Source: a virus
Length of the DNA stretch: 64,000 nt
Reading direction: 5' to 3' (one strand)
Virus record (IMG/VR): IMGVR_UViG_3300031576_000021
Span: 24,218-88,217 of that record
Part shown: positions 7,189 through 32,548 of the stretch, piece by piece
How the letters are laid out: every line of letters starts with the position of its first letter
Position numbering within the stretch: position 1 is the stretch's first letter
Made by a program: the position numbers and the translations under genes
The notes under the pieces: generated by a model
Database searches by the model: none
Told to the model about the DNA's origin: nothing
What the model saw: only the letters and a program-made list of their open reading frames with translations

Positions 7189-7370
7189 TGACCGGCTATC
7201 TCCACAGCGAGGAGCGGGACTTAGGAGCGTATCCGATCGGACAGCGCACATACTGGCGCATCGTGCAGCGATGGACGCGGCGCGCGTACTGGCACGGGGT
7301 CATCGTCGGGTCGCTCGCAACGACGATGGCGGTGCTCGTGCTCCTCGTGCTCGCGGTCTGGGTGGATTGA
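7188..7370 (+). CDS. Small membrane protein
   Basis: C-terminal hydrophobic helix; overlapping stop/start junctions. Confidence 0.5.
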   Translation: MTGYLHSEERDLGAYPIGQRTYWRIVQRWTRRAYWHGVIVGSLATTMAVLVLLVLAVWVD

Positions 7371-7633
7371 TGGACTACGATCGAGAGGATCGGTGGGCGA
7401 GTCGCGGCGTCGCGGTGGCGACGCTCCACGGGACGCGGTTCTTCCTGACGGCCACCGGCTGCGGTACGGACGTGCCCGACAACGCCAAGGTCTTCCGCTC
7501 GCTGGCGGACGCGCAGCAGGCGTGCGACGCGGCGAACATCGACCCGGCCTGGGGCGAGCTGCGCGGGAAGTGGGAGGCCCTCATCCCGTACCTGGCGTTC
7601 CCACTTGACGACGCCCCCCGTTCGGGCGCATGA
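7370..7633 (+). CDS. Hypothetical protein
   Basis: MDYDREDRW..., translationally coupled to upstream gene. Confidence 0.55.
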   Translation: MDYDREDRWASRGVAVATLHGTRFFLTATGCGTDVPDNAKVFRSLADAQQACDAANIDPAWGELRGKWEALIPYLAFPLDDAPRSGA

Positions 7634-7779
7634 CGGCCACCTACAAAAGAAAGGGGCCGCCCCCGGGGGAGGGAGCGACCCCAACGCCTACAAAACGAAA
7701 GGCCGTAGGTGTTGGGGTAGCACCAGATGCGCTGCGCGTCAACCCTCCCGCACCGTGGGCGGTGGAAGGGTGTGGGTGC

Positions 7780-8691
7780 ATGCGGAACGACAAACGGCTG
7801 CGAGTCGAGAGGTTGCTCCGACTCTACCGTCGACATGCGGGTGGCTGGCGCGGGTACTCGACCGCCAGCCAGGCGACGTTGGCCCGGAGGCTCGGGGTAT
7901 CCCGCCGGACGATCCGACGGCTCACCACCACACTTTCAGAGGCGTCTGCCGTGACCGTAACGCGGCGCGGCAAGATGCTCTCAAACCAGGTGGAAGTGAT
8001 GGGACAATTCCAGGCCAAAGTGATGGGACAATTGTCCCCGGAGCGAACTCTTACGCTGAGCGGTGGCCATGCCAAGCAGTGCAACGGGGTAGTAGTATCG
8101 AACAACAGAAGTGCGCCATGCGGCGCACGTTGGGGGGGACGGATGCCACCACGACCGATCGGAAACGCGATCCGGGCCGCAGAGTCGGCAGCAAAGGGCC
8201 GTGTCGAGGCCACCCGTGCCGCTGGAGGCACGAGCCGGGCGATAGCGGCCACCTGGGAGCGGGCCTGCCGGGCGGCCTTCCCTGACGCGCCCTTGCGGGT
8301 TCTGGTGACCGGGAAGGACCTGAAGCAGGCGAAGGGGCTGCTGGCTGAGTACGGCACGACGGCGCTTGGGCTGGTCGAGTGGGGGGTGACGCAGTGGGCC
8401 GTGTTGCGGGGCCTGGGGGCCTGGTGGGCACGGGGGCTATCCCCGACGCCGACGTGGGCTGAATTTTACCGGTACCGGGAGGCGATCGCTGCCCACATGG
8501 GAGCCGCGCGGCTCCCCGTCGATCCGGTGCAGGCGGGGTACGAGGCCGAGTACGAGCGGAGCAACGAGCGGCGTATCTGTGCCCTGCTGTTGCGCGACCC
8601 TACCCTGACGCCGGAGCATCGGGCCGAAGTAGAGCGCAGGGCGGCGGGATGTGGGATGACGCCGGCCGTCTCGAAAGCGATCGGTTGGTGA
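7780..8691 (+). CDS. Phage replication initiator with N-terminal HTH
   Basis: ASQATLARRLGVSRRTIRR HTH; internal iteron-like repeats; upstream of DnaC-like gene. Confidence 0.7.
   Translation: MRNDKRLRVERLLRLYRRHAGGWRGYSTASQATLARRLGVSRRTIRRLTTTLSEASAVTVTRRGKMLSNQVEVMGQFQAKVMGQLSPERTLTLSGGHAKQCNGVVVSNNRSAPCGARWGGRMPPRPIGNAIRAAESAAKGRVEATRAAGGTSRAIAATWERACRAAFPDAPLRVLVTGKDLKQAKGLLAEYGTTALGLVEWGVTQWAVLRGLGAWWARGLSPTPTWAEFYRYREAIAAHMGAARLPVDPVQAGYEAEYERSNERRICALLLRDPTLTPEHRAEVERRAAGCGMTPAVSKAIGW
7994..8038. repeat. Iteron-like repeats, candidate replication origin
   Basis: AAGTGATGGGACAATT at 7994 and 8018; second copy extends into palindrome GGGACAATTGTCCC. Confidence 0.6.
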
Positions 8692-23349: not shown

Positions 23350-24588
23350 ATGACGACGACATGGCAGAGTCGAATTGTCGAGCACGGCGAGGTCGATCCG
23401 CGTCTGCTCATTCCGCATCCGAAGAACTGGAAGATTCACCCAGCGTTCCAGCGGGCGGTCATGGGCGATGCGCTTAGTGAAGTAGGGTGGTTGCAAACGG
23501 TTGTGGTGAATCGCCCGACGGGAAACATCATCGATGGGCACATGCGCGTGCAGCTCGCGATCGAAGGTGGAGAGCCAACAATCCCTGTCACCTACGTGGA
23601 CCTGTCCGCACATGACGAAGCCAAGGCCCTGGCGCTCTTCGATCCAGTCGGCGCGCTCGCTCGCGAACACAACCCGATCATGGAGGAACTGATCAGGCAG
23701 GTGGATACGGATAGCATCAACATTCGGCGGATGCTCGATGCGTATGGACAACCAGCCCTGAAGGCGGGACAGACAGACCCCGATGATGTCCCAACGGCCA
23801 CCCGGCGCATCGTGCAGCCCGGGGACGTGTGGCAACTTGGCGAGCACCTCCTCTTGTGTGGGTCGTGTGAACAGTTGGGCTCCGTCGTCCCACCCGAGAC
23901 TGCCACGCTTCTCGTGACCGATCCTCCCTATGGCGTGTCATATGGCGACAAGAATGCGTTCTTGAATGCGATTGCCCCGGGCAATCGCATTCAAGAGCCC
24001 ATCGAAGGAGACCATCAGACACCTGATGAGATGAGTGTGCTCTGGCGTGCCACGTTCGGCGCCATTCGCTGTCTGCTGGCACCTGGGGCGGCCTATTATG
24101 TCACGGGTCCGCAGGGCGGCGATCTCCTCCTCCTCCTCCTCCTCCTCCTCCTCCTCGCACTTCGCGACTCCGGCTTTCCGCTGCGGCATATGCTGGTGTG
24201 GGTCAAGAACGGGCATGTCTTGGGTCGTAGCGACTACCACTACCAGCATGAGCCGATTCTCTACGGATGGGTCGACGGAGGGGCGCATCACGCAGTCGCG
24301 GATCGTTCAGAGACGTCCACATGGTTCATTCCCAAACCGCAGGTCTCCGAGCTTCACCCGACGATGAAGCCCGTGGCCTTGTGGGCACGGGCCATCCAGA
24401 ATAGCAGCGATGAGGGTGGGACGATCGTTGATCCGTTTCTCGGGAGCGGCACGGCCTTCATTGCGGCTGAGCAAACTCACCGACGATGTGTCGGTGCCGA
24501 GATCAGTCCGGTGTACTGCGATGTGAGCATTCAGCGCTGGCAGTCATTCACCGGCCAGGTGGCGACGAGGGTAGCCCATGGCGGATGA
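23350..24588 (+). CDS. ParB-N domain plus N6A/N4C DNA methyltransferase (beta class)
   Basis: IIDGHMR ParB motif; TDPPY, HPTMKP, DPFLGSGT. Confidence 0.9.
   Translation: MTTTWQSRIVEHGEVDPRLLIPHPKNWKIHPAFQRAVMGDALSEVGWLQTVVVNRPTGNIIDGHMRVQLAIEGGEPTIPVTYVDLSAHDEAKALALFDPVGALAREHNPIMEELIRQVDTDSINIRRMLDAYGQPALKAGQTDPDDVPTATRRIVQPGDVWQLGEHLLLCGSCEQLGSVVPPETATLLVTDPPYGVSYGDKNAFLNAIAPGNRIQEPIEGDHQTPDEMSVLWRATFGAIRCLLAPGAAYYVTGPQGGDLLLLLLLLLLLALRDSGFPLRHMLVWVKNGHVLGRSDYHYQHEPILYGWVDGGAHHAVADRSETSTWFIPKPQVSELHPTMKPVALWARAIQNSSDEGGTIVDPFLGSGTAFIAAEQTHRRCVGAEISPVYCDVSIQRWQSFTGQVATRVAHGG
24124..24156 (+). repeat. Perfect (CTC)11 microsatellite encoding poly-Leu
   Basis: Counted directly in the sequence. 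Confidence 0.95.
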
Positions 24589-28721: not shown

Positions 28722-29192
28722 GCGTGATCCTGTGCGTGGCGGTAGTGACGGCTGCGGCCGTGTGGTGGGCAGCGCGATGATCCTGGCTAAGCGCGAGACC
28801 ACGATGGGCATGGGCGTCACATGCGGACTCAAGTCGGTTGGCGAGGGGCGCGTCTATGACGTCGCGCCATTGGTATCTGGTATTCAGCACGCCGCGCGGC
28901 ATCCTGCGGTACGCTGGGTCGATCACGCAGGCGAACCGAGCCGTGCTCGAGCGTAAGCGCAGCCTCACGCTCCACGTCTGGTGCTGTCCTAATTCGGCGT
29001 GAAGTGTCCTAGTATGCGCGCCCATCGGCATGGACCCGATGGGCGACATCTCGGCGGAGCTGCTGACGGCCGACCAGATTGAGCCGGCGGGACTATCGGC
29101 AGACTTTCACGGGGTCTTTAGACGCCTCTCCTTATCACGCCATTCCGGGAAGCCAGGGGTGCTGTCCTACTTAGGACACTCCCGCATCGAAA

Positions 29193-30158
29193 TTAGGACA
29201 GTCCCCCCTTGATGACCCGCAAGTGGTTCGGGCGCGGTCCTCGCGGCCCGCGGAAGCTCCCCCGCCGCTCGCCCTTCGCCTGCGCGGCGGTGGACCCTGC
29301 CGGGATCGGCGCGGGCGCAGTCGGCTCCGGTGCCTCGAACGCGGCGTGCAGTAGCTCGGCGATCGACCACACGTGATCCGTCAGGCCCGCCTCCATGGCG
29401 GGAGTACACCGCAGCGTCTCGTGGACGCGGCAGAAGTTGAAGTGGGCGACGAACAGCCCCACGGCTGCTTCCAGGTTCCGCAGCCGCTTCGAATGCGAGA
29501 TGGTCAACCGGGCGAAGCGCTTGAGCGACACGCGCACCGACAGATTCAGCCGCTCGCTGTAGGACGTGCTGATTTCCCCCCAGGCCGGATCGCCCAACAC
29601 GGCAGTCTTGGTCACGCGACTGATCTTGCCGGGCGAGTAGCGCAACGCGGCCTGCTGCGCCTGGGGCACCGTGTAGTCCTTGTCCACGGTGCCGAAATCC
29701 ACGTCGGCGCCGAAGTGCCGCGAGATGGCCTCGGGGTAGCCGTTCCATGCGTCGGTGCTGATCTGCGGACGGCCCAGCACCCGCAACCGGAGGTCCTGCG
29801 CGAACGCGTCGGCGTTGTCGCCCGTGCGCTTCCCGACCCGGTACGAGAGAATGAGCTTGGACACCGCGTCCATGGCGAGAAAGACGTACTGGTCGCCGTA
29901 CTCCCTCGGGTCGTCCTGCCGAAGCCGGCGCTGCTTCTTCTGCACGAACGTCCATAGCTCGTCGGCCTGGATGAGCGTCGCGCGCACGTCCCGCACGCGG
30001 GCATCGTGCAGCCGGGCGCACGCTTCGCCCACCGTGACGCCCAGCCGCATGATCGTGTCCCGGTGGACATCGAGCAGCCGCTCGGCCGCCCGAATGCTCA
30101 CGCCGTCCACGAGGGCTGCGGCGACTTGGGCTTTCTTCTCAAATGGCAGCGTGTGCAT
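29193..30158 (-). CDS. IS1-family DDE transposase with N-terminal HTH
   Basis: GVSIRAAERLLDVHRDTIMR; QADELWTFV, ISTDAW, STSYSERLNL, FNFCRVH, TPAM. Confidence 0.9.
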   Translation of the reverse strand: MHTLPFEKKAQVAAALVDGVSIRAAERLLDVHRDTIMRLGVTVGEACARLHDARVRDVRATLIQADELWTFVQKKQRRLRQDDPREYGDQYVFLAMDAVSKLILSYRVGKRTGDNADAFAQDLRLRVLGRPQISTDAWNGYPEAISRHFGADVDFGTVDKDYTVPQAQQAALRYSPGKISRVTKTAVLGDPAWGEISTSYSERLNLSVRVSLKRFARLTISHSKRLRNLEAAVGLFVAHFNFCRVHETLRCTPAMEAGLTDHVWSIAELLHAAFEAPEPTAPAPIPAGSTAAQAKGERRGSFRGPRGPRPNHLRVIKGGLS

Positions 30159-30163
30159 GGGGA

Positions 30164-30229
30164 CATTTGTAGCTACAAACGCGCCACAAGTCAAGGGGTG
30201 GACTTCACGCCCATTTGTCGCTACAAACG
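30164..30229. promoter_or_regulatory. Divergent leaderless promoters with two palindromic operators TTTGT(A/C)GCTACAAA
   Basis: Palindromes at 30166-30179 and 30214-30227 each overlap a TACAAA -10; minus TTGACT-17-TACAAA-7-ATG (transposase), plus TGGACT-17-TACAAA-6-ATG (RHH). Confidence 0.75.
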
Positions 30230-30233
30230 GTTC

Positions 30234-30407
30234 ATGCCACGTCGCAAGGTCAAGGCCGAACGTAAGGAAGCGGTTGTCCGGTTGCGGGTGACGGAGGAAC
30301 AGCGCCGCATGTTGTTCGCGGCAGCCCAGCACGCCGGGTTGGAGTTGAGCGCCTGGTTGCGTTCACTTGGGTTGCGGGAGGCCCGCCGAATCGAATCGTC
30401 CGCGTAG
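30234..30407 (+). CDS. Ribbon-helix-helix protein (MobC/DUF1778-like)
   Basis: VVRLRVTEEQRRML..AA...GLELSAWLRS. Confidence 0.8.
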   Translation: MPRRKVKAERKEAVVRLRVTEEQRRMLFAAAQHAGLELSAWLRSLGLREARRIESSA

Positions 30408-30561
30408 GGGGGGGGCTTGCGGTCAAGGCTCGTGCGGATTAGGTGGCAGGGTCGCCGCCTGAAACCCTAAGCGCTTGGCTGACTTGGGTGCGTCTTGGGT
30501 ATGGCCTTGATCGCGGGAACGCGATAGGTAGGCCAAAGAGGGAAGAGAAGAGCCCCTTGGC

Positions 30562-30653
30562 GGCGAGGTGTGTGAGCCAGGTTGAAACAGTCGGACTCAA
30601 AATCCGGTGAGCGCTTACCCGCTCCGTCCGTTCGAATCGGACCCTCGCCGCCA
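30562..30653 (+). tRNA. Class II tRNA, anticodon CAA (Leu), with serine-type body
   Basis: Acceptor GGCGAGG/CCTCGCC, G73, encoded CCA; D stem TGT/ACA; anticodon arm TCGGA-CTCAAAA-TCCGG; variable stem GAGCG/CGCTC; T arm GTCCG-TTCGAAT-CGGAC. Confidence 0.9.
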
Positions 30654-30737
30654 AGGCGCTTTTCTCTCGGTACGTGCCCCTTCTGCCCCTGCGCCAGCAT
30701 GTGCTGCGTGCAAGCTGGCAGCGCGTGCTAGCTATCG

Positions 30738-30770
30738 CATCTATTGGCCTGTTGCCGTCCTTGTGTCAAG
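30738..30770 (-). promoter_or_regulatory. Candidate promoter pointing antisense across the tRNA
   Basis: CTTGACACAA on the minus strand (30770-30761) followed by ...GGC like the other copies; -10 is weak. Confidence 0.45.
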
Positions 30771-31014
30771 CTGCGCTTGACTAGCCCGCGACCAACGGTC
30801 GCGCATGCTTGTTCGTGTTCCAACGCATTTCCCTAGGCTTAGCGGCGACCGTTCAACTTAGGACACTGGTTCATTCGACTTAGGACAGATAGCCCCTAAT
30901 TCGGACAGCGTCAAGCCAGGCACCCGTTTGGGGCATTGGGGGGGGCTTGATCAATTGCGGTGCTTGATTAATTGTTAAGGGCCCCATATGTAGGGGGGGC
31001 AGGCCGCAGGGGCA

Positions 31015-31221
31015 CTAGGGGGTCCAGGGAGGGGCCGTGGGGAAGTTGTAGGATTCGTAGCTCTGAGAGGCCGGATATTCCCCGACGATGCGTACTTTCG
31101 CGGCATGGCGCGATGCGGCCTCAAGCGATCGCGCCACACTCGCGTCGCGCCTCGTGCCATCCAGCTCGATGAAGAACATGTACGTTTCCGGCTGCCCGTG
31201 AACCGGCCTGGAGATGATCAC
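31015..31221 (-). pseudogene. pheA: 3' fragment of prephenate dehydratase (ACT domain)
   Basis: IISRPVHGQPETYMFFIELDG...D..V..SL...KVRIVGEYP matches PheA ACT consensus IESRP...YxFFIDxxG...LGSYP; no N-terminal part. Confidence 0.75.
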
Positions 31222-31596
31222 GGAGGAGCTGCGTCTCGACGTCAAGCTCGCCCTGGTGGGCCATGATCGCGGCAGGATCAACGGGCCGCGCGGGGAATCG
31301 GTGCGTCGGATGAACACGACATCGACAGCTCGACGACGACAACCTCAACGGAGGACATATCTGGACGATTGCCGAGCTGGCGGACGCGGCCCTGACTGCG
31401 TCCGACGCCGACGCCGCTCCCCACGCCAGATCAGCAGACGTTCCCCGGCATGAGCGCGGCACAGGCGAAGAACGATCCGAAGGGCGTCACGTTGCGGCGG
31501 CTCCGCCTCACGATAATAAGGGGCGGGCGGAAATGAAGACACGACGCGCGAGTGTCCTACTTAGGACAGCACCCCACGTCTATGGGGACGTGCGGT

Positions 31597-31851
31597 ATGG
31601 GTGACGACCAGCTCCTCTATCGCGGACTCGGCGAGCGTCACGACGAGACGCACGAGTTCATCCGCAAGCGGATCGAGCTGGGGCTGTCCGTGGAAGGAGC
31701 CGCGCGGCGCATGGGACTATCGCCCGATGTTGTCGAGGCACTCGAAGCGGGCAATCTCGTGTGCCGGGACGCGGACGGCTGGAAGCGGGTCCTGGCCCTG
31801 CTCGACGATCCCGAGGCCGAAGACTTGACACAAGACGAGAGAACCGGCTAG
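31597..31851 (+). CDS. XRE-family HTH protein
   Basis: IRKRIELGLSVEGAARRMGLSPDVVEALEAG. Confidence 0.75.
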   Translation: MGDDQLLYRGLGERHDETHEFIRKRIELGLSVEGAARRMGLSPDVVEALEAGNLVCRDADGWKRVLALLDDPEAEDLTQDERTG

Positions 31852-31861: not shown

Positions 31862-32548
31862 ATGGGGTTCCTCTACATCGCGTCGCACGGCGAGGGTGAC
31901 GAGCGGGAGTTCATCGGCGCGGTCGATCCCGTGACGCAAGAGTGGATGCCCTTTCTGGCCGAGACCGAGGATGACCTGGTGACACTGCGCGAGTATGCGC
32001 GGGCGTTTGCCGACCAGACCGGCGTGCGGGTGCTGCTCCGACGGTTCGAGACCGCCGCCGAGGAAATGATCGAGCCGTCGGGAGGGCATGATGGCGGAAG
32101 AGACGAGTCCGAAGCGCGGCCGGAAGCTGGTGAAGAATCGGCTACTGGCGCAGATCGACAAGGTGATGCGGGTCCTGGGCGAGATGACGCCGGAGGAGCT
32201 GGCGTTGGCGAAGCCGCACCTGGAGAAGGAGTACCCAGCACTGTTCCGGTAGTATGCCGCATGGCCCCACTGGATCATCTTTGCGGGTGCGGCCACACCG
32301 CCGATCATCACATGTGGGCAACGGGATTCGGCCCATGTCTCACCGATCGTTACGAGCATCTGGGGGTTGAGCGGTCGTGCGTTTTCTTCGACGGTTGCAA
32401 ACTGACCATCGCGTGTGTGATCGCCGTCGTGCATGAGCCCGGTGATTTGCCGGCCTTCATGACCGGCACCGCCGACGTGCTTCGGCATCCGTGCGGCCAT
32501 GTTGCCCGAGGAGAGCGATGCCCTGGCGAGGTCGAGGTGCCAGTATGA
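31862..32548 (+). CDS. Hypothetical protein, possibly a read-through fusion of two small genes
   Basis: Plausible N- and C-terminal parts; the middle overlaps another ORF. Confidence 0.5.
   Translation: MGFLYIASHGEGDEREFIGAVDPVTQEWMPFLAETEDDLVTLREYARAFADQTGVRVLLRRFETAAEEMIEPSGGHDGGRDESEARPEAGEESATGADRQGDAGPGRDDAGGAGVGEAAPGEGVPSTVPVVCRMAPLDHLCGCGHTADHHMWATGFGPCLTDRYEHLGVERSCVFFDGCKLTIACVIAVVHEPGDLPAFMTGTADVLRHPCGHVARGERCPGEVEVPV
32088..32252 (+). CDS. 54-aa helical protein nested out of frame in 31862..32548
   Basis: GGAGGG RBS; MMAEETSPKRGRKLVKNRLLAQIDKVMRVL... Confidence 0.5.
   Translation: MMAEETSPKRGRKLVKNRLLAQIDKVMRVLGEMTPEELALAKPHLEKEYPALFR

What the first reader, a model, noticed from the sequence alone, without database searches (positions are those of the whole stretch)
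30545..30770. tRNA ends locked in a long leader/trailer stem and faced by an antisense promoter: possible RNA-only toxin-antitoxin
Seen: leader GAGAAGAGC-C-CCTTGGC pairs with GCCAAGG-C-GCTTTTCTC, extending the acceptor stem to about 24 bp and burying G73 and CCA; a minus-strand TTGACACAA lies about 110 nt downstream. Known: RNase P pairs with free RCCA, and hok/sok uses fold-back of a stable RNA plus an unstable antisense RNA. Inference (speculative): a latent mistranslating tRNA toxin released by slow processing, serving addiction or abortive infection.
Basis: inference. Interest (0 to 1): 0.7.

Follow-up and report, generated by a model that had tools for sequence, protein, structure and literature searches.

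The report
Locked passenger tRNA on a transposon
A jumping gene that landed in a phage genome carries a serine-type tRNA with a leucine anticodon whose two ends are clamped in a long helix, next to a small repressor gene written almost only in the one leucine codon this tRNA reads, so it looks like a private translational control circuit of the jumping gene, not an RNA-only poison-antidote pair.

Summary
The flanks of the only tRNA gene of this 88-kb phage record (30562-30653) pair over 18 positions (16 Watson-Crick, 1 G-U, 1 C-C), giving a 25-position helix that buries G73-CCA. A minus-strand TTGACACAA (30769-30761) belongs to a promoter-like family with six plus-strand copies.

The tRNA is cargo of a 1,755-bp IS1-family insertion sequence, nested in a related non-autonomous element. 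Its body is serine-type: G73, 25.8 bits on a tRNA-Ser profile, no tRNA-Leu hit. Its anticodon is CAA.

New here: the RHH repressor gene just upstream uses UUG for 6 of 7 leucines (phage background 14%). In related IS1 elements, 12 of 12 that carry a tRNA(UAC) have 3-5 GUA codons within 11 codons of the transposase gene. This scan has noted such tRNA-codon coupling before, on other DNA.

My reading (about 0.4): the helix is a maturation lock, processing stalk and terminator for a codon-coupled regulatory tRNA, and the minus-strand promoter is the element's inward promoter. RNA-only toxin-antitoxin: about 0.06. There are no expression data and no close homologue for covariation.

The parts
28980..31573 (.). 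Outer, non-autonomous IS-like element: terminal inverted repeats GGTGCTGTCCTAA.. and 8-bp target duplication CCACGTCT at 28972-28979 and 31574-31581
   Evidence: Read; ends compared
29158..30912 (.). Inner autonomous IS1-family insertion sequence (1,755 bp) carrying transposase, RHH, tRNA and the minus-strand promoter. Flanked by the 8-bp direct repeat AAGCCAGG (29150-29157 and 30913-30920)
   Evidence: both repeat copies printed; ends GGTGCTGTCCTAC.. and reverse-complement GACGCTGTCCGAA..
29193..30158 (-). IS1-family transposase, 321 aa
   Evidence: Pfam PF03400 24.8 bits (cut-off 24.1). NCBIfam transpos_IS1 55.8 bits, below its cut-off of 100. 4,130 relatives at E<=1e-3; best non-self 74% identity
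30166..30227 (.). Divergent promoter/operator region: two palindromes TTTGT(A/C)GCTACAAA (30166-30179, 30214-30227), each presenting a GCTACAAA -10-like box towards one gene. The two start codons lie 6-7 nt beyond
   Evidence: the only exact copies in the window; 6 matches against 1.22 expected. The promoter reading is by eye
30234..30407 (+). Ribbon-helix-helix (NikA-like) DNA-binding protein, 57 aa; 6 of its 7 Leu codons are TTG
   Evidence: Pfam PF21983 32.4 bits (cut-off 27). Codon counts; background
30544..30561 (+). 5' leader arm of the extended helix (AGAGAAGAGCCCCTTGGC)
30562..30653 (+). Type-II tRNA with anticodon CAA, G73 and encoded CCA; canonical 7/5 acceptor/T arms, 18-nt variable arm, serine-type D loop
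   Evidence: ARAGORN. Rfam tRNA 47 bits (gathering 29). tRNA-Sec model 38.7 bits, below 47. tRNA-Ser profile 25.8 bits, no tRNA-Leu hit
30650..30667 (+). 3' trailer arm (GCCAAGGCGCTTTTCTCT), which includes G73-CCA and ends in a U-rich run
30741..30769 (-). Promoter-like site: TTGACA (30769-30764) + CAA, 15-nt spacer, GG, then -10-like CAATAG (30746-30741). It points inward from the IS end across antisense tRNA and RHH towards the transposase gene
30787..30803 (+). Small G+C hairpin followed by CATGCTTGTT; weak terminator-like site downstream of the tRNA
   Evidence: 2 such sites found in the region, 2.1 expected by chance
30845..30912 (.). Right end of the inner IS, with repeated ..CTTAGGACA.. 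/ ..TAATTCGGACAG.. motifs like those at the other ends
   Evidence: (family D1)

Best explanation
The stretch is the precursor region of a passenger tRNA gene of an IS1-family insertion sequence that has jumped into a phage genome.

Shown:
- The tRNA has a complete cloverleaf, a serine-type body with G73 and encoded CCA, and the leucine anticodon CAA.
- Its flanks extend the acceptor stem by 17 pairs and bury the RNase P cleavage site and G73-CCA.
- The RHH gene directly upstream on the same strand spells 6 of 7 leucines with UUG, the codon this tRNA reads.
- Two palindromes lie over the divergent RHH and transposase start regions.
- A promoter-like site of the phage's own class points back through the tRNA.

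Inferred:
1. RHH and tRNA are made as one transcript that ends at the helix. The inner G+C-rich part of the helix followed by UUUUCUCU acts as a terminator and 3' stabiliser.
2. The closed helix must be cut by a double-strand nuclease of the RNase III type, or be melted, before RNase P and 3' trimming can act. Mature tRNA therefore appears slowly and in small amounts.
3. The tRNA is charged with serine (my odds about 0.55 to 0.6). It then puts Ser at UUG, and the UUG-rich RHH repressor is its most sensitive target.
4. RHH normally shuts off both its own operon and the transposase gene. Enough mature tRNA would disable new RHH and flip the element into an ON state with more tRNA and more transposase. 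The lock keeps that switch off by default.
5. The minus-strand promoter is the element's inward promoter. It would give convergent, antisense transcription over the tRNA and RHH and may read on into the transposase gene. It is not a dedicated antitoxin gene.
For: Helix.

RNase P is slowed by leader-RCCA pairing: abstract and passages of PMC9433436.

IS context: target duplications and inverted repeats; transposase.

tRNA identity:
- It is the only tRNA of the 88-kb record and scores 47 bits on Rfam tRNA.
- With the anticodon masked it scores 25.8 bits (E 2e-9) on a profile of 18 alphaproteobacterial tRNA-Ser and gives no hit on a profile of 16 tRNA-Leu. True tRNA-Leu score at most 14.6 bits on the Ser profile.
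- 18 of 18 of those tRNA-Ser have G73 and 16 of 16 tRNA-Leu have A73.

Codon link:
- RHH TTG 6 of 7; transposase 5 of 30.
- Phage background 97 of 672 Leu codons; binomial 5.5e-5; 0 of 7,623 windows of 57 codons hold 5 or more TTG.
- RHH homologues in three related elements without this tRNA have 1 of 7, 3 of 9 and 1 of 9.
- The six TTG sites are Leu in the L005 homologue at 5 of 6 aligned positions.

Family pattern:
- Of 111 IS1-family transposase loci, 12 carry a tRNA(UAC). All 12 have 3-5 GTA codons in 11 codons after the RYSP motif.
- 48 of 53 Val codons there are GTA, against 20 of 243 elsewhere in the same genes.
- Among the other 99 loci, 82 have none, 15 have one, one has two and one has three.

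Second case: a serine-bodied tRNA(CAA) inside an IS1595-family element of a Gemmatimonadales MAG also has a leader-trailer extension, of unrelated sequence.

Promoter class.

Precedent: Ser-identity allo-tRNAs with Leu anticodons insert Ser in E. coli, and such tRNAs lie near transposable elements and toxin-antitoxin genes (PMC5389517 section 16; PMC7609411 passages).
Against: - There are no expression, processing or charging data of any kind.
- Only one copy of this element exists in what I could reach, so no covariation test on true homologues was possible. The closest transposase relatives (56-74% identity) could not be fetched.
- The TTG result rests on 7 codons and was looked for after seeing the anticodon.
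- The six RHH TTG sites and 2 of 5 transposase TTG sites are conserved leucines. A working product therefore needs Leu, which fits a Leu-supplying tRNA as well as a Ser-inserting one.
- Most short tRNA(UAC) genes of relatives have A73 and could be ordinary valine acceptors. That favours a cognate-supply logic in the family.
- The helix is not general. Of 7 serine-bodied IS-associated tRNAs, only this one is an outlier in duplex energy. L103 and L015 (-17.4, -17.6 kcal/mol) lie within the range of controls (-15 to -18), and L017, L058, L007 and L014 have none.
- A terminator with a 74-nt branched loop is atypical, and the terminator scan did not call it.
- D-stem pair 11-24 is G-C, not the C-G that I recall as a SerRS element in E. 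coli.
- The family statistic is not corrected for shared ancestry.
Confidence: 0.4

Rival explanations
1. Cognate-supply timer (bldA-like). The tRNA is accepted by the host LeuRS despite G73 and supplies UUG decoding. RHH cannot be made efficiently until this slowly maturing tRNA appears. An element that enters a naive cell therefore expresses transposase for a short window before RHH shuts it off.
For: All six RHH TTG codons, and 2 of 5 in the transposase gene, sit at conserved Leu positions. Relatives pair a GUA cluster with tRNA(UAC) genes that mostly carry A73, the valine discriminator as I recall it. The locked precursor would set the delay. bldA is the only tRNA for the rare UUA codon in S. 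coelicolor (abstract of PMC2000904).
Against: G73 and a serine-type D loop and variable arm. 25.8 bits on the Ser profile and no hit on the Leu profile; 16 of 16 real tRNA-Leu have A73. UUG is not rare in the phage (14% of Leu codons). The host's tRNA pool is unknown.
Confidence: 0.2
2. The helix is only a compact bidirectional terminator and insulator built onto the acceptor stem, with no regulatory meaning for the tRNA. The minus-strand promoter is a captured or chance copy of a host/phage promoter.
For: The G+C-rich inner stem is followed by UUUUCUCU on the plus strand and by a U/C-rich run on the minus strand. The leader is the matching A/G tract, as in bidirectional terminators (folds). 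It lies between convergent promoter-like sites.
Against: The terminator scan does not call it. The loop is a 74-nt cloverleaf. The helices of L103 and L015 have no U tract. Pairing of all four RCCA bases would still hinder RNase P whatever else the helix does.
Confidence: 0.2
3. One reading: an RNA-only toxin-antitoxin. The mature mistranslating tRNA is the toxin, held latent by the fold-back helix. An unstable antisense RNA from the minus-strand promoter is the antitoxin, serving addiction or abortive infection.
For: Serine body with a leucine anticodon. Helix burying the ends. Promoter-like site facing the tRNA. RNA toxins repressed by RNA guides exist (CreTA; abstract of PMC8501985). Two of six allo-tRNA(UAU) variants killed E. 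coli (PMC5389517 section 16).
Against: No transcript evidence. The promoter faces RHH and the transposase gene as well, and lies at the usual place of an IS inward promoter. A protein regulator (RHH) that is codon-coupled to the tRNA sits in the same operon. The operator palindromes are absent near the antisense promoter. No minus-strand terminator was called. An insertion sequence is not lost from cells the way a plasmid is, so addiction has no clear object.
Confidence: 0.06
4. The tRNA is not used in translation. It is either decaying cargo or a tRNA-shaped regulatory RNA, for example a decoy for a synthetase, a nuclease or a defence system.
For: Six tested allo-tRNA(UAU) variants were inactive in E. 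coli translation, and the authors suggest non-translational roles. Rfam's tRNA-Sec model was the best clan hit in one search and lay below its threshold. The D-stem pair is unusual.
Against: All stems are intact and the usual invariant bases are present (U8, A14, G18G19, U33, G53-C61, T-loop TTCGAAT). It scores 47 bits on Rfam tRNA. The codon coupling in this element and in relatives argues for decoding.
Confidence: 0.12

Closest known systems
allo-tRNAs and other irregular Ser-identity tRNAs near transposable elements and toxin-antitoxin genes (Mukai et al. 2017, PMC5389517, section 16 read; review PMC7609411, passages read)
   Same: Serine-type body with a non-serine anticodon (Leu anticodons occur there too). 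Location beside transposon genes and small antitoxin-like genes. Environmental bacteria. Relatives fetched here carry the UAU and GCG anticodons that dominate that group.
   Different: This tRNA has the canonical 7/5 acceptor/T arrangement, not 8/4 or 9/3. In the text I read, neither the leader-trailer lock, nor the codon link to the neighbouring gene, nor the IS1 architecture is described there. Figures and supplements were not visible to me.
Leader-trailer processing stalks of bacterial 16S/23S rRNA cut by RNase III (recalled; PMC10250234 seen in a search listing only)
   Same: A stable RNA enclosed by a helix of 20 bp or more formed by its 5' and 3' flanks.
   Different: Here the enclosed RNA is a single tRNA and the helix is continuous with the acceptor stem, so it also hides the RNase P site and CCA. 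Cleavage is untested. The phage has no RNase III gene of its own.
Leader-RCCA pairing as an anti-determinant for bacterial RNase P (Zhu et al. 2022, PMC9433436, abstract and passages read)
   Same: Pairing of N(-1)N(-2) with the RCCA end extends the acceptor stem and slows cleavage.
   Different: There it is 2 pairs, unwound by the enzyme. Here it is 4 RCCA pairs plus 13 more.
hok/sok type I toxin-antitoxin (recalled)
   Same: 5'-3' fold-back of a stable RNA, plus a facing promoter that could give an antisense RNA.
   Different: No toxin peptide ORF. The RNA is a tRNA. The antisense would also cover a protein gene. No evidence of 3' processing-dependent activation.
bldA tRNA-Leu(UAA) and TTA-containing regulators in Streptomyces (abstract of PMC2000904; the rest recalled)
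   Same: One tRNA is coupled to a regulator gene through one leucine codon.
   Different: bldA is a cognate, chromosomal tRNA for a truly rare codon. Here the tRNA is serine-bodied and transposon-borne, and the codon is 14% of Leu codons in the phage.
CreTA RNA toxin / RNA antitoxin pairs (abstract of PMC8501985)
   Same: A precedent for toxin-antitoxin pairs made of RNA that act through tRNA and codon supply.
   Different: CreT is a mini-mRNA that sequesters a tRNA, and CreA works through Cascade. Nothing of that kind is seen here.

Membership tests
tRNA (Rfam RF00005) | Cloverleaf scoring over the family's gathering score | tested here: met
   47 bits against 29. ARAGORN call. In one search the clan's best hit was tRNA-Sec, at 38.7 bits, below its 47.
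tRNA-Ser (identity set) | G73 and a long variable arm; overall likeness to tRNA-Ser rather than tRNA-Leu | tested here: met
   G73 and an 18-nt variable arm. Ser profile 25.8 bits, no Leu hit. 18 of 18 reference tRNA-Ser have G73 and 16 of 16 tRNA-Leu have A73.
tRNA-Ser (identity set) | Serine anticodon, and actual charging by SerRS | tested here: not met
   The anticodon is CAA (Leu). Charging is not testable with these tools.
allo-tRNA (Mukai 2017) | 12-bp acceptor branch arranged 8/4 or 9/3 | tested here: not met
   Acceptor GGCGAGG/CCTCGCC is 7 bp and T stem GTCCG/CGGAC is 5 bp. The relative L015 does look 8/4.
allo-tRNA (Mukai 2017) | Ser identity elements with a non-Ser anticodon; neighbourhood of transposon or toxin-antitoxin genes | tested here: met
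hok/sok-type (type I) toxin-antitoxin | Small toxic peptide ORF on the stable RNA | tested here: not met
   On the + strand, no ORF lies in the tRNA transcript other than RHH. The 77-aa minus-strand frame 30467-30700 simply overlaps the tRNA in antisense.
hok/sok-type (type I) toxin-antitoxin | Antisense RNA gene with its own promoter and terminator | tested here: inconclusive
   A promoter-like site is present. No minus-strand terminator was called. No RNA data exist.
hok/sok-type (type I) toxin-antitoxin | Activation by slow 3' processing; killing after loss of the locus | not testable with these tools
   Needs experiments.
IS1 family insertion sequence | IS1-type DDE transposase, short terminal inverted repeats, 8-9 bp target duplication (the last is recalled) | tested here: met
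   PF03400 at 24.8 against 24.1 bits. Relatives are named IS1 family transposase by JGI. Inverted repeats and 8-bp duplications for both nested elements. NCBIfam transpos_IS1 is below its cut-off (55.8 against 100).
Intrinsic (rho-independent) terminator | Short G+C-rich hairpin with a small loop, directly followed by a U run | tested here: inconclusive
   A G+C-rich stem and UUUUCUCU are present, but the loop is a 74-nt cloverleaf and the scan did not call it.
RNase III processing stalk | About two turns of double helix formed by the flanks of a stable RNA; cleavage by RNase III | tested here: inconclusive
   A 25-position helix with one mismatch. Cleavage is not testable. The length requirement is recalled.
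Codon-coupled tRNA/regulator pair (bldA-like) | The regulator gene is enriched in the codon read by the tRNA | tested here: met
   6 of 7 against a background of 14%; 0 of 7,623 windows reach 5. tRNA-less relatives have 1/7, 3/9 and 1/9.

The most novel reading that the evidence does not exclude
A transposon-borne genetic-code switch. A serine-charged tRNA(CAA), kept as a closed pro-tRNA, and a repressor written in UUG form a bistable circuit. Release of the tRNA destroys new repressor by Leu-to-Ser mistranslation and unleashes both the transposase and proteome-wide mistranslation. The inward promoter of the phage's class times this to phage gene expression. More broadly, IS1-family elements use private tRNAs and matched codon clusters to gate their own transposition.
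Probability: 0.2. Interest if true: 0.85.

Novelty: new variant of a known kind. Interest (0 to 1): 0.62.

Why it matters
Odd tRNAs with serine identity and foreign anticodons have been known since 2017, but their function is open.

This element offers a compact, clonable case of 1.75 kb. The tRNA sits in one operon with a repressor that is spelled in the tRNA's own codon, and the tRNA's maturation looks gated by a helix that blocks RNase P.

If the coupling is real, it gives such tRNAs a testable job: control of a mobile element's own genes through a private codon. It would also be a natural example of regulated mistranslation or regulated codon supply.

The family-wide match between IS-borne tRNA(UAC) genes and a GUA cluster in the transposase gene (12 of 12 loci) points the same way. 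I found it in no paper, although this scan has noted the same kind of coupling on other DNA.

Tried and rejected
1. Close homologues for covariation.
- blastn of the whole element against phage and plasmid collections: no match.
- Transposase search and tRNA-pattern scan of viral contigs: nothing.
- The class-level genome search returned 53% or less.
- BLAST of the odd tRNAs against all loci found only near-duplicates: L004/L010, L113/L115, L033/L116, L007/L017.

2. Expression. No RNA holder is listed. The only run that holds the stretch may be the source sample, a cave metagenome. Laying its contigs showed one record covering the whole stretch, the likely source, and short unlike fragments of other transposases. 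I draw nothing from that about copy number, an empty site or toxicity.

3. The generic sigma-70 scan gave 0 promoters. I therefore rely on the phage's own motif family, whose -10 resembles the Caulobacter-type GCTANAWC box (recalled, not tested).

4. My in-silico excision gave only the same 54-aa frame that already exists, so this was not reproduced.

5. The helix as the ends of a miniature transposon: no target duplication flanks it (read by eye). Rejected.

6. A phage-encoded RNase III: none found.

7. The leader-trailer count in MFE folds with 30-nt flanks was too noisy to use. Duplex energies are given instead.

8. Of the 20 genome-wide pattern hits, 15 are not tRNAs.

9. The translation of L015:1-1417 was started in the wrong frame and led nowhere.

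10. A possible plus-strand promoter for the tRNA alone (TTGATC 30507-30512, 16 nt, TAGGCC 30529-30534) is an eye reading only.

11. Supplementary files and figures of PMC5389517 (its Figure 4A and Figures S5, S6) could show loci or precursor helices like these. I could not see them.

12. The tally of 35 of 401 genomes includes the unpublished genome G242. No sequence or locus of G242 was used.
Full report
**What the DNA is.** The window is bases 24218-88217 of an 88,217-bp virus record with direct terminal repeats, rated complete. G+C is 66%. ARAGORN finds one tRNA gene in the window, 30562-30653 on the plus strand, 92 nt, anticodon CAA. Rfam's tRNA model finds the same gene and no other in the whole record, at 47 bits against a gathering score of 29. 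In an earlier cmscan the best clan member was tRNA-Sec at 38.7 bits, below its threshold of 47.

**The observation.** From, the 18 bases before the tRNA (30544-30561) and the 18 bases from G73 onward (30650-30667) pair at 17 positions. These are 16 Watson-Crick pairs, one G-U, and one C-C mismatch.
- Bases -1 to -4 pair with G73, C74, C75 and A76.
- The repeat finder reports the same thing, together with the acceptor stem, as a 25-nt inverted repeat, 92% complementary.
- The fold of 30540-30672 has an MFE of -66.3 kcal/mol and z -4.7, and 0 of 200 shuffles fold as well.
- The leader-trailer duplex alone is -28.3 kcal/mol, z -5.0.
- Only two inverted repeats of 24 nt or more with 90% complementarity and arms within 150 nt exist in the 64 kb.

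The minus-strand TTGACACAA is at 30769-30761.
- The exact 9-mer occurs 7 times, 6 on the plus strand and 1 on the minus strand. In 300 first-order Markov simulations the mean was 0.13 and the maximum 3.
- All seven copies share TTGACACAA, a spacer A, GG, and an A at the -11 position of a -10-like box about 15 nt further on.
- At least the copy at 31825 lies 37 nt before the start of a 228-aa frame, 31862-32548.
- The generic sigma-70 scan calls nothing in 28900-31700, and a loose 13-mer search is at chance level.

I take both parts of the observation as confirmed. The word 'promoter' remains an inference.

**Context: a nested insertion sequence.**
- The bases 28980-31573 are bounded by inverted ends GGTGCTGTCCTAA.. 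and by the 8-bp duplication CCACGTCT.
- Inside, 29158-30912 has ends of the same kind and is flanked by the 8-bp repeat AAGCCAGG.
- The inner 1,755-bp element is therefore an autonomous insertion sequence sitting in a related non-autonomous one.
- Its transposase (29193-30158, minus strand, 321 aa) matches Pfam DDE_Tnp_IS1 just over threshold. It has 4,130 relatives at E<=1e-3, many named IS1 family transposase; the best non-self is 74% identical.
- Divergent from it lies a 57-aa ribbon-helix-helix protein (30234-30407; NikA-like, 32.4 bits against 27; weak TacA and RelB antitoxin resemblance below cut-offs).
- Between the two start codons lie two palindromes TTTGT(A/C)GCTACAAA. They are the only exact copies in the window, and each offers a GCTACAAA box 6-7 nt before a start codon (by eye).
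- The tRNA follows RHH on the same strand after 154 nt, with no terminator called in between.
- The minus-strand promoter-like site is 143 nt inside the element's right end and points inward, over the tRNA and RHH in antisense and on towards the transposase gene. This is where insertion sequences usually keep an inward promoter (recalled).

**What kind of tRNA.** The cloverleaf is canonical 7/5, with U8, A14, G18G19, U33, G53-C61, T loop TTCGAAT, an 18-nt variable arm, G73 and an encoded CCA.
- I collected 18 tRNA-Ser and 16 tRNA-Leu from five alphaproteobacterial genomes. All 18 Ser have G73 and all 16 Leu have A73.
- With anticodons masked, the window's tRNA scores 25.8 bits (E 2e-9) on the Ser profile and gives no hit on the Leu profile. 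Real tRNA-Leu reach at most 14.6 bits on the Ser profile.
- It is therefore serine-bodied with a leucine anticodon.
- Charging is untested, and the 11-24 pair is G-C rather than the C-G that I recall as a SerRS element.

**The codon link (new).** UUG is the codon this anticodon reads.
- The RHH gene uses TTG for 6 of 7 leucines. The transposase gene uses it for 5 of 30.
- In 20 long coding-like frames of the phage, TTG is 97 of 672 Leu codons. The binomial chance of 6 or more of 7 is 5.5e-5. None of 7,623 windows of 57 codons has 5 or more TTG.
- RHH homologues found in three related elements that lack such a tRNA (L005, L023, L076) use TTG for 1 of 7, 3 of 9 and 1 of 9 leucines.
- The TTG sites of RHH are core hydrophobic positions that are Leu in the L005 homologue. 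Two of the five in the transposase are invariant Leu.
- A working product therefore needs leucine there.

**Relatives.** I read 111 IS1-family transposase loci: the window, 80 metagenome loci and 30 loci from a sample of 401 alphaproteobacterial genomes, 35 of which had a match (the tally includes the unpublished G242, from which nothing else was used). Many carry odd tRNA genes.
- Twelve carry a tRNA(UAC). Ten of these have a short type just upstream of the transposase gene on the same strand. Two (L017, L014) have a serine-bodied type on the other strand.
- All 12 have 3-5 GTA codons within 11 codons after the conserved RYSP motif.
- 48 of 53 Val codons there are GTA, against 20 of 243 elsewhere in the same genes.
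- Of the other 99 loci, 82 have none, 15 have one, L007 has two, and L049 (cut at its 5' side) has three (Mann-Whitney 1e-13, not corrected for shared descent).
- L058, with a serine-bodied tRNA(UAU), has three ATA codons in the same stretch.
- The family pattern is therefore that the element's own genes hold the codon that its own tRNA reads. Notes of this scan report the same kind of coupling (AUA, AGU) on other genomes. I found it in no paper.
- Mukai et al. 2017 describe allo-tRNAs, mostly UAU and GCG, near transposon and toxin-antitoxin genes. Some insert Ser at Leu codons in E. coli. Six UAU variants were inactive, and two of them were lethal.

**Is the helix a recurring feature?** Only partly.
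- A scan of one genome per species for a serine-type D loop plus a CAA loop plus a T loop gave 20 hits. Five are tRNA-like: L090, L093, L100, L102 and L103.
- L103, from a Gemmatimonadales MAG, lies inside an IS1595-family element: 13-nt inverted ends at 940-952 and 2079-2091, and a transposase scoring 129 bits on PF12762.
- Its flanks extend the acceptor stem by about a dozen pairs with one bulge, in a sequence unrelated to ours (z -3.7).
- Its transposase uses TTG for 3 of 17 leucines, against 2 of 100 in a neighbouring host gene.
- L015, an 8/4 allo-like tRNA divergent from an IS1 transposase, has an outer 6-bp helix that leaves GCCA in an internal loop.
- L017, L058, L007 and L014 have no such helix.
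- By duplex energy only the window's case stands clear of the controls.
- Other notes of this scan describe leader-trailer stalks around tRNAs of giant viruses and Patescibacteria and read them as RNase III platforms. I did not test those.

**How it most likely works.**
- Established: bacterial RNase P is slowed once two leader bases pair with RCCA, 13-fold for GG, and it must unwind such pairs (PMC9433436). Here four RCCA pairs and 13 more would have to open. A closed, slowly maturing precursor is therefore a sound inference.
- The helix is long enough for RNase III (length rule recalled). The phage has no such gene, so a host enzyme would act.
- The inner G+C-rich stem followed by UUUUCUCU, with an A/G-rich leader, also looks like a terminator that could work in both directions. 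A cloverleaf-sized loop is unusual, however, and the scan did not call it.
- I therefore read the helix as end-of-operon terminator and stabiliser, processing stalk and maturation brake in one.

The codon link then gives the tRNA a target, the RHH repressor.
- If the tRNA is charged with serine, as its body suggests, mature tRNA would ruin new RHH at six core leucines and derepress both promoters. That is a positive-feedback switch, which the lock holds off.
- If the tRNA is charged with leucine, it would instead enable RHH synthesis after a delay.
- I put the first at about 0.4 including the lock, and the second at 0.2.
- The minus-strand promoter would add convergent transcription over the tRNA and RHH. 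Because it is of the phage's promoter class, it may tie the element to phage gene expression.

The structural part (a latent tRNA) stands as an inference. The toxin-antitoxin part has no support. There is no toxin ORF, no evidence of an antisense RNA, and no object for addiction. A protein regulator in the same operon is codon-coupled to the tRNA. I give it about 0.06.

**Limits.**
- No RNA data: no RNA holder is listed.
- There is one copy only, and no close homologue could be fetched.
- The TTG count is small.
- The family statistics are not phylogeny-corrected.
- Identity rules are partly recalled.
- Figures and supplements of the key paper were not visible.

Noticed in passing
Loci L004, L010, L033, L038, L032, L037, L113, L115, L116, L117, L017, L014 (transposase alignment columns 199-209): IS1-family elements that carry a tRNA(UAC) all have 3-5 GTA codons in 11 codons after the RYSP motif of the transposase (48 of 53 Val codons there, against 20 of 243 elsewhere). 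97 of 99 elements without that tRNA have 0 or 1.
   Followed up: yes
window 28980-31573, 29158-30912: Two nested IS-like elements, each with its own 8-bp target duplication. The outer one has no transposase of its own and holds unstudied frames such as 31121-31462 (minus strand), which match no Pfam or NCBIfam family.
   Followed up: partly
window 1231, 3825, 14649, 25133, 31825, 53536 (plus strand): A phage promoter-like family: TTGACACAA, about 15 nt, then GGCTAAAA-like. It resembles the Caulobacter-type consensus as I recall it, so the host may be an alphaproteobacterium. Not tested further.
   Followed up: partly
window 23954-24002: A 24-nt inverted repeat, 92% complementary, with a 1-nt loop. 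It is the only other long near-perfect hairpin in the window.
   Followed up: no
window 30408-30419 and 30938-30949: An exact 12-nt direct repeat GGGGGGGGCTTG. One copy lies right after the RHH stop and one just outside the inner element's right end. GTAGGGGGGG is also repeated, at 30404 and 30990.
   Followed up: no
L015:1472-1564 (minus strand): An allo-tRNA-like gene with an 8/4 acceptor/T arrangement, an enlarged anticodon loop (CTTTACAT) and its own TTGACA-17-TATAAG promoter, divergent from an IS1 transposase gene.
   Followed up: partly
L007:3784-5183: One IS1-family transposase gene is surrounded by three tRNA-like genes: Gly-UCC of 77 nt, Arg-GCG of 73 nt, and a serine-bodied GCG of 96 nt next to an IS-end motif.
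   Followed up: no
L090:142-340 (minus strand): A normal tRNA-Ser(UGA) is followed 20 nt later by a near-copy whose anticodon loop reads CAA and whose anticodon stem is broken. This looks like a tandem duplicate in decay.
   Followed up: no
L100:5335-5422 and 7351-7989: A degenerate serine-bodied tRNA(CAA) in a Parvibaculum MAG lies 1.9 kb from an IS1595-type transposase gene that is 40% identical to that of L103.
   Followed up: no
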